From NCBI GenBank assembly GCA_964016885.1, contig OZ024742.1, positions 189,038,001-189,102,000 of the forward strand: 64,000 nucleotides of DNA. The letters are read 5' to 3'. This DNA comes from Eledone cirrhosa (Eukaryota). Below are positions 15,468 to 58,131 of this stretch, in pieces. Numbering within the stretch: the first letter of the stretch is position 1; every line of letters begins with the position of its first letter. The notes beneath the pieces were generated by a model. The model worked only from the letters and a program-made list of their open reading frames with translations, ran no database searches and had not been told where the DNA came from. The position numbers and the translations under genes were made by a program.

Positions 15468-15514
15468 TGCCGACAGCCGTTTCGTCCGACCATATGGTGG
15501 GACTTTTCAAGGCA
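15468..15514 (-). ncRNA. Minimal HHR, U3-A8 variant
   Basis: Minus strand: tgcc-TTGAAAA-gtcc c acca ta tggt c ggac-GAAA-CGGCTG-TC-ggca. Confidence 0.8.
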
Positions 15515-15625
15515 TATAACATGTTATATATATATATATTAATCTTCATATGGGGGACAAAATTCTAGTGAGTGTACATCGTTAAATTTTCTCCCTCATA
15601 TCAAGGATTTGAAGACAATTCATTT

Positions 15626-15699
15626 TCACCTGACGAATTCAGTGATAATCGATCATGGCCATATGATCGATCTATCTCTTATTGAAACATGTGTTGTGA
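15626..15699 (+). ncRNA. Minimal HHR
   Basis: tcac-CTGACGA-stem II containing atcgatcat/atgatcgat-GAAA-CATGTG-TT-gtga. Confidence 0.7.
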
Positions 15700-15997
15700 T
15701 TAAAATGATTGGAAATTTACACCATGCCTTTGGATCTTTATTTTGATACAAATACTCCGTTTTGCATCATCTAGCTGTTCCCATAAATGGAATTGGATAT
15801 ATATATATATATATATATATATATATATATATATATATATATATATATATATGGGTCACCTTGAGCTAGTTTCATGGACGGTTTCAACGTACGGTTACGG
15901 GTAACTCGACAAGTTTGTAAGAATCACGTTCAATCTTGGTGTGTAAAGGATAAAAGAGAAAACACAGGTAAGCATTAAAAAAAGGATTTTATCCAGG

Positions 15998-16098
15998 TAT
16001 TTACGACCGTTTCATCGGTAAGTGAAACCTTATATTGCTATACTGCAAATAGCAGACACTCAATAATAATTGTTGTACACGTCCAAATTTTCAAAATA
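15998..16098 (-). ncRNA. HHR of family A, inverted pLTR copy (U3-A8)
   Basis: Reverse complement of 19001-19101. Confidence 0.6.
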
Positions 16099-16484
16099 GT
16101 GAATAAGTTACTCTTAACAAGTTCTTAATATATAGAGAAAAACATTTTTTGGAATTGTATTTGCTAGTATAGAGAGGGAGGAAGAGAAATTAGAAAGTGG
16201 AGGGACAAAGGGAGTAGTATAGAGAGAGAGGAAGGGGGAGAAGAATTAGGAAGTAGGGTGATAAACTGAGATGGAGGGAGGGGTATATGTGGAAGGAATC
16301 TTTGATCAGTTTTGATATATTTAGACATGATGTCGTTGATTTAGAGTGTAGTGAGTTAAAGAGAATTAAATTGTTTATAGTGGGAGAGATGGAGAGAGAG
16401 AGAGAGAGAGAGTGGGAGAGAGAGAGAGAGAGAAAGAGAGAGAGGGGGAGATAGAGAGATAAACATATATATATAAAAAAATAC

Positions 16485-18430
16485 ATACAATAGCTTCATA
16501 CGGAAGGAATTACATAGGAAATACAAAAAAACTAACGAGACGGCACTGATAAACATCAACAACGAGGCACACAATATAGTCAAACGCCTAGGAATAGAGG
16601 ACAGAACGGAGCCACTTAGGCCATGTACCCCCACATTTAATCTCAAGGACCATAAGGTAAATTATGATTATAACCCCACAATTAGACTTATATGCCCGTC
16701 CAAATCGGACATTGGGAAAATTAGTAAACATATATTAGACAGAGTGATAGCACAAATGAAGAATAAACTAGTAATTAAACTATGGGGTAACGCTACCGAA
16801 ACAATTAAATGGTTTAACAAAAAAGTATCTAAGTTTATACAATTTGACATCAACGACTATTACTCCTCTATATCTCCCAACATATTGGATAAAGCCTTAA
16901 TATTCGCCAAAGCCAATTCTGACCTGACAGACGACGAGATAACAATTATATTAGCTGCTAGGAAAACAATAATTAAATTTGAAAACGCCTATTGGGAACG
17001 TAAGGATAGATTAAATAACTTCGACATCACGATGGGGGCTAATGACTCGGCTCAAGTCACAGATTTAGTAGGTATTTACATAGCCCATCATTTACAGAGG
17101 GAGTTTAGCGACCTTCACGGTGGAATCTACAGAGACGATGCCCTTCTCCTAGTTAAAAACCTAAATAACCAGAGCATAGAAAGACTGCGTAAGAATATTA
17201 GAAAGACTATCGGGAAACTGGGCCTTAGCATAACGTATGATATAGCACTAAAATAGTTAACTTTCTAGACGCGACGCTTAATCTAAATACGGGACTTATA
17301 AGACCCTTTCACAAGATTAATGAAAACTTAGCATACATCGACTGTAATTCGAACCACCCACTATCCATAATTAAATACGTTCCGCGCAGTATATCCCTTA
17401 GGATCTCCCGCCTCTCGTCTAACCAACAAATCTTCGAGGAACATGCAGAGTACTACAATACCGCACTAGACAAGTACTACAATACCGCACTAGATAGAGT
17501 AGAATATATAGATGAAAGCCTCCGCAAAGCACACACGAACACGCATAACACAAACTCCAGAAACACACGCACACACACATTTACGCATAGAACTACAAAT
17601 TATAATGAAAATAGAAATAGAACATCGAAATCAAGCAGGTCACGCAGTAGAAAATATATTTGGTATAACCCCATATTTAACACCTGTTAGTACTAACCTA
17701 CCCTCTACCTTCTTTAGAATAATAAATAAGCACTTTCCAGATTCACATAGATACAGCAAAATCCTTAACACTAAATCTATTAGACTATCTTACTCCACGG
17801 CACCAAACATAGAGGCACATATTAAGATGCTTAACGCTAAAAAGATACGTAACAACACCAGAACACAAATTTAGAACAAAAACAATACAATTACCATTGA
17901 ACACAACAGAATATCTAATACACAACCACCCACTAATAGGCAAACAAGACGTAACACACTTGTACAGGCATCGCATCCTACTAATAATGCCAAGGTTGCT
18001 CATGACAAGAATTGTAATTGCCACCTACCTGAAACCTGTCCATTACATAACGAATGTATGCAGTCTAACCTGGTTTACCAATGCACAGTGGAATTAGACA
18101 ACCAGAAATGGTATTACATCGGAGCGACTGGGAATACATTTAAAGCTCGTTGGTATACACAGCGTTACGCAATGAAACATTCTCAGCATCGTTATGTAAC
18201 TACCCTTGCGAACAAGACCTGGCAACTGAGGAAAAGTAACCATTAATACACCCTGAAGTGGAAAAAATTATCGAACGCGCCCTCATATCGGAGTGGTATG
18301 AGAAGCTGTCGATTATGTGACCCTGAGCTGTTCCACATTTTGAGTTCGAAGAATAAGTTACTCAGCAGTAAAATCGAAAGATCGATTTAGTGTAACCATA
18401 GACTCAAAGAAAAGTTGTCGCACTGCAAGT
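16485..18430 (+). pseudogene. Frameshifted PLE reverse transcriptase + GIY-YIG endonuclease
   Basis: FIQFDINDYYSSI, FDITMGANDSAQVTDLVG, GIYRDDAL, NFLD, SNHP; Cys linker CNC..CPL..C; LVYQC..YYIGATGNTFKARW; stops and frameshifts. Confidence 0.9.
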
Positions 18431-55489: not shown

Positions 55490-56075
55490 TGTACATCATT
55501 CCCCTTAGCTTTGTCGATCGATAAATCTCCGGTGGTTTCGAGTACGAGTGTTTCAGTAGTTCTATCAACAGAACAGCCTCCTCATGAAATTAGCGTGTAA
55601 GTGGCTGAGCAGTCCACAGACACGAGTATTCTTAACACACTTCTCAGAGAGATTCAGCATAATGTAGTGCAGGCATATCAAACTGAAGGTCCCCCGAGGA
55701 CCACATGGGTCACATATGTGTTGTCTGAAGGTCACACAAGACAACTAATTGCGCACATTACAACTAACTTTTTTTTATTTTATATTACGAAGATAAAATA
55801 TGCTCGCGCTGTAAAAACCTTTGTGCGGGCCACAGGTGTGCTTGTAAAGGGCCGCATGTTTGACATGCCTGATGTAGTGTATGACAAGGGTGGGCTTTTG
55901 AATTATAAGTACAGACAAACAGACGGTCTTCTAAACAATTTCCGTCTATCCGGTTTCACTCACAAGGCTTGGCAATGAAACTTGCACAAGATGGCAAGCC
56001 GTCGAATTGAATTTGAGGCCTTCATGATTGCGAATCGAACTCCGCAATGATTCTGTCATACTACATCCACTCTCG
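55490..56075 (-). mobile_element. Older tRNA-headed SINE interrupted by a hAT MITE
   Basis: Degenerate tRNA-like head at 55975-56065 on the minus strand; body continuous across the MITE. Confidence 0.55.
55670..55871. mobile_element. hAT MITE with perfect 8-bp TSD
   Basis: TIRs caggcatatcaaac / gtttgacatgcctg; ATGTAGTG at 55662-55669 and 55872-55879. Confidence 0.92.
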
Positions 56076-56171
56076 GGTCTGTAAATAACTGGTGCGTATT
56101 TTTTTTTTTTTTTTTTATATTGTTTATAATTTATTCGTTGAGTTATAAACATTTATATGCTCGCTAGGGAA

Positions 56172-56570
56172 TGTGTTGTTTTCATATTTTCTTATTACCT
56201 GATAAACTTAGCAACAAATATAACCACCTCGTCTCACCCATCTCTCTTTCTCTCTCTCTCTCTCTCTCTATATATATATATATATATATATATATATATA
56301 TATATATATATATATATATATATATATATATATATATATATATATATATATATATATATAGAGAGAGAGAGAGAGAGAGAGAGAGAGAGAGAGAGAGAGA
56401 GAGAGAAAGATAGATGGGTGAGACGAGGTGGTTATATTTGTTGCTAAGTTTATCAGGTAATAAGAGAATATGAAAACAACATATATATATATATATGTTG
56501 TTTTCATATTCTCTTATTACCTGATAAACTTAGCAACAAATATAACCACCTCGTCTCACCCATCTATCTA
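56172..56570. repeat. Zig-zag triple inverted duplication with (TA)n loops
   Basis: ~75-bp unit: + at 56175, - at 56410-56481, + at 56496. Confidence 0.9.
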
Positions 56571-56730
56571 TATATATATATATATATATATATATATGTT
56601 GATCATATATTAACTTATATATATATATATATATAAATATATATATATATATATATATATATATATATATATATATATATATATATATATATATATTATA
56701 TATATATATATATATATATATATATATATA

Positions 56731-57662
56731 AGTTAATATATGATCAACACTAATGTGTTTTTATTGCAAATTGACAATAATTCAAATACATATAGTCTGC
56801 CTGTATCGATCTAAAAAATAATAAATCTATACTCACAGACGTATATCGGCAACTGCCCTGGTGCCTAGACAAGTTTAAATTCCAAAATTCAAACCTATTC
56901 AGCAGATCAGTCCGAACTTCAAAAAATAAACCTGTTTCACAAAGGATGGTATACTATTGAAATAATTAATTAATTGTTTTATATTAAATTGCATTGTACT
57001 GCTCAGAAACATTTCTTAGAGTTAAATAATTGTATTTGACTCCTGAGTGAAAACTCTAAATTATATTATATCTGCTCCTTCGGTCGAGCTGAATTCGTAA
57101 TCCCATATAAACGGCTGTTATTTCTAGCGCCATGAGTATGAGCCAGATTGCTGGGGAAAAAAAGCACATGTGTTTGGCATACGACAAACCAGTCCTTAGA
57201 TATTTCTCTTAGGCGAAGTAACTCTAATTTTTCTGGGTGCCTATTGAGAATCACAGAAAATTGATTATTTCACTAATAATTATTTCATAAATAGTTATTC
57301 CACAATTAATTAATTATTTCAATAGTATACCATCCTTTGTAAAAGAGGTTTATTTTTTGAAGTTCGGACTGATCTGCTGAATAGGTTTGAATTTTGGAAT
57401 TTAAACTTGTCTAGGCACCAGGGCAGTTGCCGATATACGTCTGTGAGTATAGATTTATTATTTTTTAGATCGATACAGGGAGACTATATGTATTTGAATT
57501 AAGGTATTTCTATCTGGCTAAATTATTGTCAATTTGCAATAAAAACACATTAGTGTTGATCATATATTTTTTTATATTAACTTGTATTGTACTGCTCAGA
57601 AACATTTCTTAGAGCTAAATAATTGTATTTGACTCCTGAGTGAAAACTCTAAATTATATCAT
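56731..57662. mobile_element. Unclassified element with inverted (56738-56976 / 57302-57568) and direct (56977-57067 / 57570-57660) repeats
   Basis: Direct alignment; (TA)n flanks; no convincing HHR core. Confidence 0.7.
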
Positions 57663-57770
57663 ATATATATATATATATATATATATATATATATATATAT
57701 ATATATATATATATAACACACACACACACACATATATATATATGTATATATATATATATATATATATATA

Positions 57771-58131
57771 TATAAAGAAAAAGGGATGAAATCGAAAATG
57801 CAACTGAAGTCTTATTTTTTTTTTAAATATATATATTTATTTGGTTCCTTTACCGGTTTCGCAGTTCTTCTGCTTTTCAAAAGGTGAGTTGAGATGGAGG
57901 GTCTGTGGTTTTTCTCACATGTGAGAAAAACCACAGACCCTCCATCTCAACTCACCTTTTGAAAAGCAGAAGAACTGCGAAACCGGTAAAGGAACCAAAT
58001 AAATATATATATTTTAAAAAGAAATAAGACTTCAGTTGCATTTTCGATTTCATCCCTTTTTCTTTATACTTACACTCGTGTAGGACACCTCGGTTATTTT
58101 TCATTTTGTAAAAAAAACCTCACTTTCTAAT
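57771..58131. mobile_element. F4 loopless palindrome with U3-A8 HHRs at 57847-57884 (minus) and 57955-57992 (plus)
   Basis: Centre ctcaca|tgtgag at 57919/57920; CCTT-TTGAAAA-GCAG aagaa CTGC-GAAA-CCGG-TA-AAGG. Confidence 0.92.

What the first reader, a model, noticed from the sequence alone, without database searches (positions are those of the whole stretch)
15468..57992. Recurrent U3-A8 catalytic core in six independent families
Seen: TTGANAA replaces CTGANGA at 15468, 15998/19001, 19413, F4 (32860, 57847, 57955), F3 (32995, 33709, 35145) and 35264, with both positions changed together. Known: C3-G8 is a Watson-Crick tertiary pair, and U3-A8 is a tolerated but uncommon variant. The double change argues for function, and its frequency here is striking.
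Basis: partly seen in the sequence, partly recalled or inferred. Interest (0 to 1): 0.7.

Follow-up and report, generated by a model that had tools for sequence, protein, structure and literature searches.

The report
Transposon ribozymes with swapped core pair
Six abundant jumping-gene families in this animal genome carry a predicted self-cutting RNA whose core has a U-A pair in place of the usual C-G, a swap already in print; two of the lineages also spread with the half-swapped pair, likely the stepping stones between the two forms.

Summary
Confirmed but largely known. All 11 cited sites are type I hammerhead motifs with a U3-A8 core, in six families with about 850 to 12,900 genomic copies each. 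Five trace to Penelope-like retroelements (PLEs); one is a 605-bp non-coding tandem unit. U3-A8 in PLE hammerheads is published (PMC4209133: about 1,300 against 2,000 hits in Schistosoma; PMC3088659). The frequency is a local excess: 10 of 20 high-scoring cores in the window, 18 of 132 in a 1.2 Mb genome sample. Independence holds: on a reverse-transcriptase tree U3-A8 needs five changes and one clade is rejected (p-AU 1.5e-55). The pair is preferred, not obligatory. Four families are almost purely U3-A8, with single mismatches at the neutral decay rate. Lineage C has 698 of 2,204 copies with U3·G8, which looks ancestral. Lineage F3 has 405 of 4,582 with C3·A8, in an older subfamily. These are likely intermediates of the swap. 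Cleavage is untested, and no RNA data were available. The scan noted U3-A8 PLE hammerheads, the C3·A8 subfamily (this genome) and a U·G stepping stone (another genome) before.

The parts
15467..15515 (-). Family A type I hammerhead, U3-A8 (TTGAAAA at 15510), self-complementary helix III, C17 at 15472; pLTR of a Hydra-type PLE
   Evidence: 855 copies, first 100 listed all U3-A8; same motif flanks the ORF in L012
15997..16099 (-). Family B hammerhead, U3-A8 (core 16094), in the inverted upstream pLTR
   Evidence: score 28, the weakest
16477..18429 (+). Broken PLE ORF (RT then C-terminal GIY-YIG), parent of family B; Hydra-clade motifs
   Evidence: RWK, DKT, CxCx5C in the 92%-identical copy L123 against PMC8557442 section 11
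19000..19102 (+). Family B hammerhead, U3-A8 (core 19005), 74-nt helix II region, A17 at 19097; downstream pLTR, 576 nt after the ORF
   Evidence: 1,087 copies, first 100 all U3-A8
19420..19554 (-). Family C hammerhead, U3-A8 (TTGATAA at 19549), A.A mismatch at 10.1-11.1, long helices II and III, C17 at 19425
   Evidence: lineage 2,204 copies: 1,506 U3-A8, 698 U3.G8, 0 with C3
19175..19570 (-). 5'-truncated copy of the 605-bp non-coding family C unit (retrozyme-like; tandem arrays elsewhere)
32859..32898 (+). F4 minimal hammerhead, U3-A8 (core 32864), A17
   Evidence: 12,914 exact core copies
32995..33090 (-). F3 hammerhead, U3-A8 (core 33085), 5-bp helix III, C17; inverted pLTR copy
33709..33804 (+). 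F3 hammerhead, U3-A8 (core 33714), C17 at 33799
   Evidence: lineage 4,582 copies: 4,161 U3-A8, 405 C3.A8, 12 U3.G8, 4 C3-G8
35143..35238 (+). F3 hammerhead, U3-A8 (core 35148)
35264..35304 (+). Family G minimal hammerhead, U3-A8 (TTGAGAA at 35269), palindromic helix III, short helix I, A17
   Evidence: 1,652 copies, first 100: 98 U3-A8, 2 C3.A8; 323 nt behind a PLE endonuclease end in L152/L286
57846..57885 (-). F4 minimal hammerhead, U3-A8 (core 57880), left arm of a head-to-head pair
57954..57993 (+). F4 minimal hammerhead, U3-A8 (core 57959), right arm of the pair

Best explanation
These are type I hammerhead motifs in the terminal repeats of Penelope-like retroelements and one retrozyme-like derivative, predicted to cut the element's RNA, in which the 3-8 core pair switched from C-G to U-A at least five times, likely through U·G and C·A intermediates. 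Shown: motif anatomy, copy numbers, link to PLE ORFs (five of six families), several origins on the RT tree, amplified mismatch subfamilies. Inferred: the RNA is transcribed in tandem, folds (as a dimer in A, B, F4 and G, whose helix III is a short palindrome; as a monomer in F3 and C, whose helix III is long), and cleaves after N17 to release the unit that the PLE reverse transcriptase and GIY-YIG endonuclease paste into (TA)n. Selection acts only on the few source copies. It favours any 3-8 pair that keeps the active-site geometry, but is weak enough that a wobble (U·G) or C·A source can found hundreds of copies before the second transition restores a Watson-Crick pair.
For: Descriptor hits far above controls. 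Between families the paired states dominate: 111 C3-G8, 18 U3-A8, 2 U3.G8, 1 C3.A8 copies; 28, 8, 1, 1 families; the two singleton mismatch hits belong to mostly C3-G8 families. Lineage H holds both paired states on one scaffold. RT tree of 18 labelled rows: 5 changes, all forced by well-supported branches; shuffled mean 5.2; one clade rejected. Lineage C: 12 of 13 fetched U3.G8 copies pass the full descriptor, U3.G8 lies on both sides of the deepest split and U3-A8 is nested in each (3 changes). F3: the C3.A8 subfamily has linked diagnostic changes and is older (6% from its majority, 16 copies) than the U3-A8 subfamilies (1.5%, 47 copies; 0.8%, 5 copies). Literature: natural U3-A8 and in vitro activity of such covariants (PMC3088659); U3-A8 in PLE repeats (PMC4209133).
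Against: No cleavage data. PLE minimal hammerheads cleave poorly in vitro even with C3-G8. In one pairwise mutagenesis only the G-C swap rescued the 3-8 position; all other double mutants there were low (PMC9901934), so U3-A8 may be weak in some scaffolds. Within F4 the counts carry no selection signal: U3->C 59, A8->G 26, free position A7->G 36. Mismatch subfamilies amplified, so cleavage may matter little. Both switches are transitions towards A/T in an AT-rich sequence (window 35% G+C). Hammerhead-to-ORF links rest on proximity, single observations for some rows; repeat swapping between elements would mimic switches. Trees are short, midpoint-rooted, and lineage C counts are inflated by tandem arrays.
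Confidence: 0.72

Rival explanations
1. Cleavage is nearly dispensable in these elements; U3-A8 arises by AT-biased transitions and founder effects, and the apparent pairing reflects only weak structural preference (or a protein-binding fold) and not catalysis.
For: Amplified U3.G8 (698 of 2,204) and C3.A8 (405 of 4,582) states; Naiad PLEs spread without canonical hammerheads; low in vitro activity; U4C and mismatched 10.1-11.1 pairs are common here.
Against: Two independent mismatch states should then be as common across families as U3-A8; they are 1 and 1 against 8 families. The other core letters (G5, A6, A9, GAAA, U16.1, non-G 17) stay in families with unrelated helices, although my descriptor demanded most of them; allowing G17 added no hit.
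Confidence: 0.18
2. U3-A8 arose once or twice, and a hammerhead-bearing terminal repeat was passed between RT lineages by template switching, so the families are not independent origins.
For: These elements insert beside each other in (TA)n and nest; all 10 U3-A8 families have a C-G 15.2-16.2 pair, 6 of 10 have G10.1-C11.1.
Against: No sequence similarity among the six repeats outside the core; same-scaffold switches exist in lineage H and lineage C, which swapping cannot explain.
Confidence: 0.07
3. The motifs are chance matches or copies of one repeat.
For: TTGANAA occurs 79 times in the window; no Rfam hit; four of six folds are not more stable than shuffles (z -0.1 to -1.6).
Against: Descriptor controls, 855 to 12,914 copies per family with 0 control matches, fixed position behind PLE ORFs.
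Confidence: 0.02

Closest known systems
U3-A8 minimal hammerheads of Schistosoma mansoni Cercyon PLEs (Cervera and de la Pena 2014, PMC4209133; parts 1-2 of 4 read)
   Same: Type I motif in pLTRs, short helix I, palindromic helix III, U3-A8 covariation, opposite-strand pairs 100-700 bp apart, thousands of scattered copies
   Different: Here U3-A8 is rarer (14% of copies against about 1,300 of 3,300 hits there); helix II is up to 78 nt; F3 and C have a full helix III; the parts read give no tree of origins and no single-mismatch subfamilies
Natural U3-A8 hammerheads (Perreault et al. 2011, PMC3088659; section 8 and passages read)
   Same: Same covariation; U.U mismatch at 10.1-11.1 also reported
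   Different: A few examples, not traced through transposon lineages
Hydra clade of PLEs (Craig et al. 2021, PMC8557442; section 11, passages, supplement search)
   Same: RWK, DKT, CxCx5C, C-terminal GIY-YIG, (TA)n targets, hammerheads in pLTRs; fits parents of B and F3 by motif, A and G by tree
   Different: The passages read speak of canonical hammerheads; their descriptor for cores was CUGANGA. File S2 (hammerhead list) did not come up in my supplement search and may list U3-A8 cores
Metazoan non-LTR retrozymes (PMC7229834, search listing only; bioRxiv 10.64898/2026.07.22.740005, listing and one passage)
   Same: Family C: non-coding unit with a type I hammerhead, in tandem arrays and partial copies
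   Different: 605-bp unit, U3-A8 or U3.G8 core, long helices; circular RNA not shown

Membership tests
Type I hammerhead ribozyme | Core N3-U4-G5-A6-N7-N8-A9 and G12-A13-A14, A15.1-U16.1, H17 | tested here: met
   11 of 11 sites
Type I hammerhead ribozyme | Three helices, helix I open | tested here: met
   helix I weak in the window's F3 and G copies, 4 bp in most F3 copies; helix III needs a dimer in A, B, F4, G (duplex -5.8 to -9.8 kcal/mol)
Type I hammerhead ribozyme | Watson-Crick 3-8 pair | tested here: met
   U3-A8 at all 11 sites; not met by the U3.G8 and C3.A8 subfamilies elsewhere in the genome
Type I hammerhead ribozyme | Match to an Rfam hammerhead model | tested here: not met
   0 hits at gathering score, for the C3-G8 motifs too; not a defining feature for minimal PLE motifs
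Type I hammerhead ribozyme | Self-cleavage after N17 | not testable with these tools
   no assay
PLE-associated hammerheads | Located in pLTRs flanking an RT + GIY-YIG ORF | tested here: met
   B in window; A in L012; F3 in 13 loci at 687-803 nt; F4 in 4 loci at 1,161-1,570 nt; G at 323 nt. Not met for C. Pfam gave no RT or GIY hit on five window fragments; identity rests on motifs and tblastn among own-genome ORFs
Hydra clade PLE | RWK, DKT, CxCx5C linker | tested here: met
   B copy L123 has all three; F3 copy has RWR, DKT, CxCx5C; A has RWR, DKA
Hydra clade PLE | No CCHH motif; placement with published Hydra sequences on a tree | not tested
   no reference sequences were used
Neptune/Nematis-type PLE (parent of F4) | GxKF, DKG, CX2-5CxxC linker | tested here: inconclusive
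   motifs present; which of the clades was not resolved
Non-LTR retrozyme (family C) | Non-coding tandem unit with type I hammerhead | tested here: met
   605-bp period, no linked PLE ORF in the 22 of 30 loci printed
Non-LTR retrozyme (family C) | Accumulates as circular RNA | not testable with these tools
   no RNA data

The most novel reading that the evidence does not exclude
One genome holds a natural record of a catalytic base pair crossing its fitness valley by both routes: U3·G8 (ancestral in lineage C, resolved to U3-A8 at least twice) and C3·A8 (older F3 subfamily, followed by two younger U3-A8 subfamilies). Copy numbers would then read out how much cleavage a retroelement needs, and U3-A8 cores would favour C17 because A17 can mispair with U3, as G17 does with C3.
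Probability: 0.4. Interest if true: 0.55.

Novelty: new member of a known kind. Interest (0 to 1): 0.32.

Why it matters
What hammerheads do for Penelope-like elements is still open (PMC8557442). Natural sets of all four 3-8 states on one scaffold give ready-made constructs to ask whether cleavage rate predicts spread. Practically, searches fixed on CUGANGA miss about a fifth of the cores here (18 U3-A8 and 8 U4C of 132 hits). The U3-A8 variant itself is not news.

Tried and rejected
Rfam and Pfam gave nothing useful. Self-comparison with the repeat finder was swamped by microsatellites; blastn replaced it. My first descriptors missed C, B and F3 or the mismatched 10.1-11.1 class (44 C3-G8, 11 U3-A8); one search is the final one and still needs one search's version for F3 and G. 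I first read family C as non-canonical (two extra bases before the core); rejected. I first called the parents Nematis-like and Poseidon-like; corrected; row names keep the old labels. The idea that the six families are parts of one composite element was rejected: neighbours differ from locus to locus. Left out of the labelled tree: 7 ORFs without an assigned hammerhead, L298/L202 and L112 (nested insertions), families C and H (no RT found). The careful tree did not finish; both trees are quick ones. Within-family mismatch counts in F4 were tested as evidence of selection and rejected (neutral rate). G17 cores: none. Not readable: Przybilski and Hammann 2007 and Lunse et al. 2017; the latter, on PLE hammerhead variants, may already report these states. 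Paper searches for single-mismatch natural subfamilies or U3-A8 origins found none, which does not show absence; supplements of PMC4209133 and the bioRxiv paper were not seen.
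Full report
Setting. The window is G000:C3:189038001-189102000 of a 3.0 Gb genome, 35% G+C and full of (TA)n and (TG)n tracts; that it is an animal genome is inferred from size and repeat content.

Observation. All 11 sites are type I hammerhead motifs with TTGANAA cores (coordinates). The heptamer occurs 79 times in the window, so only the full architecture counts. A strict descriptor gave 4 hits, all U3-A8, against 0.7 per shuffle. The final descriptor gave, in 120 stretches of 10 kb spread over 15 contigs, 101 C3-G8, 8 C3-G8 with U4C, 18 U3-A8, 1 C3·A8 and 2 U3·G8 at score >=30; reversed and shuffled controls gave at most 1-2 in each U4 class and up to 4 in a U4C class. 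The site at 19413 is canonical once helix I is read as GCUCG/CGGGU with C17 at 19425; the competing register is 1.1 kcal/mol more stable in the window copy but is weakened in relatives.

Frequency. The window also holds C3-G8 hammerheads: 10, plus 45284 and 29827 seen. With both descriptors merged at score >=30 the window has 10 U3-A8 and 10 C3-G8 copies in 6 and 6 families; the sample has 18 and 111 copies in 8 and 28 families. The excess is nominally significant by copies (p = 0.0006) and by insertions (p = 0.008), not by families (p = 0.14), and the window was picked after the fact. Cervera and de la Pena report about 1,300 U3-A8 against about 2,000 C3-G8 minimal hammerheads in Schistosoma, a higher share than here. 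So the frequency is not striking.

Parents. Family B flanks the broken RT + GIY-YIG ORF at 16477-18429 as an inverted upstream and a direct downstream repeat; the first look found 30,601 candidates for this RT. A, F3 and G sit at ORFs of the same group, which carries the Hydra-clade motifs of PMC8557442. F4 lies 1.2-1.6 kb behind a different PLE type with DKG and a CX4CxxC linker. Family C is a 605-bp non-coding unit, 99% identical between the best copies, in tandem arrays.

Independence. The six repeats share no significant sequence outside the core. On a tree of 18 RT regions with an assigned core (6 U3-A8, five from window families; 12 C3-G8) the label needs 5 changes, all forced by branches with SH-aLRT >=95; shuffled labels need 5.2 on average, and a single U3-A8 clade is rejected (p-AU 1.5e-55). 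Close sisters differ: B is U3-A8, a 67%-identical sister C3-G8, another U3-A8. The links are by proximity, two rows are short, and the tool warned of long branches at the base. Lineage H, absent from the window, has both paired states on one scaffold: 89 U3-A8, 9 C3-G8, 1 C3·A8, 1 U3·G8 among the first 100 of 796.

The four states inside each window lineage. F4: 12,914 U3-A8, 59 C3·A8, 26 U3·G8, 0 C3-G8; the free position 7 shows 54 changes, 36 of them A to G, so the singles are neutral decay after insertion and say nothing on function. A (855) and B (1,087): first 100 all U3-A8; G (1,652): 98 of the first 100. F3: 4,161, 405, 12, 4 of 4,582; I looked for this after notes e1-8836956 and e1-10329839. 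The C3·A8 copies share linked changes, keep all three helices in most copies, and are older than the two U3-A8 subfamilies sampled (the U3-A8 sample is biased to copies close to the window's). Exact patterns undercount old copies, so the true share is higher. C: 1,506 U3-A8, 698 U3·G8, none with C3. Arrays inflate both counts (64 of the first 100 U3·G8 places are one array), but those 100 fall at 15 separate sites with four different N7 letters. 12 of 13 fetched U3·G8 copies pass the descriptor; on a 19-row tree U3·G8 lies on both sides of the deepest split, U3-A8 is nested in each, and one pair is identical but for position 8.

Mechanism. Established: C3-G8 is a Watson-Crick pair of the active fold; covariants were active in vitro and U3-A8 occurs in nature; metazoan PLE hammerheads need dimers and cleave slowly. 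Inferred: these motifs cut tandem transcripts after N17; short palindromic helices III of A, B, F4 and G form only as dimers, while F3 and C can fold alone. Switching needs two transitions; the amplified U3·G8 and C3·A8 subfamilies are the two possible midpoints. Against full activity: one pairwise mutagenesis found only the G-C swap active at this position. A side result: C17 is found in 6 of 10 U3-A8 families and 2 of 30 C3-G8 families (p = 0.001), as expected if A17 mispairs with U3 the way G17 does with C3; families are related and 4 of 10 have A17, so this is only a lead.

Verdict. Real feature, known kind, known variant. The additions are the count of origins and the two intermediate states; earlier notes of this scan already describe the C3·A8 subfamily in this genome and a U·G stepping stone in another. 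The names of hammerhead positions follow the papers read; the A·C wobble geometry and the animal group are not claimed.

Noticed in passing
window 2472-2567 (-); L001, L275-L277, L290, L291, L301: A second recurrent core variant, U4C (CCGANGA with C3-G8): 8 of 132 hits in the sample, on several branches of the RT tree; three families hold both U4 and C4. PMC3088659 mentions U4C only from a viroid.
   Followed up: partly
window 1165-1213, 4838-4967, 24510-24766, 29827, 45284, 45483-45743, 53959-54465, 58205-58270: At least 12 C3-G8 hammerheads in about seven families, several as head-to-head pairs.
   Followed up: partly
genome sample L001-L120: The 10.1-11.1 pair is mismatched in most C3-G8 families (T.T 10, C.A 4, A.A 3, A.G 2, others 2 of 30), and helix II regions reach 116 nt.
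   Followed up: no
G000:C1:81709744-81748686; L066; L152-L161: Lineage C forms long tandem arrays (64 or more units of about 608 bp with U3.G8 cores; 615-bp arrays with U3-A8); L066 also holds a 310-bp tandem array with a C3-G8 hammerhead.
   Followed up: partly
window 28782-29564 (+) and 61354-63740 (-): Two broken copies of another PLE type; the first is followed by a C3-G8 core at 29827; at 62727 (+) the descriptor gave a U3.C8 hit inside the ORF's antisense, shared with L012 and L076, probably chance.
   Followed up: no
window about 30870 (-) and 34891-34974 (-): Decayed extra copies: an F4 core one A short, and a G copy that lacks the first half of the core.
   Followed up: no
window 3388-3570, 9076-9258, 9653-9839 and about 15 more places: A dispersed 180-bp repeat family at 80-95% identity, no hammerhead found in it.
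   Followed up: no
window 24833-27126; 31151-32325; 51163-52436: Tandem arrays of 74 (37) bp, 417 bp and 15 bp units.
   Followed up: no
L282:2420 (-), L021, L112: Further U3-A8 families not in the window, all with C17.
   Followed up: no
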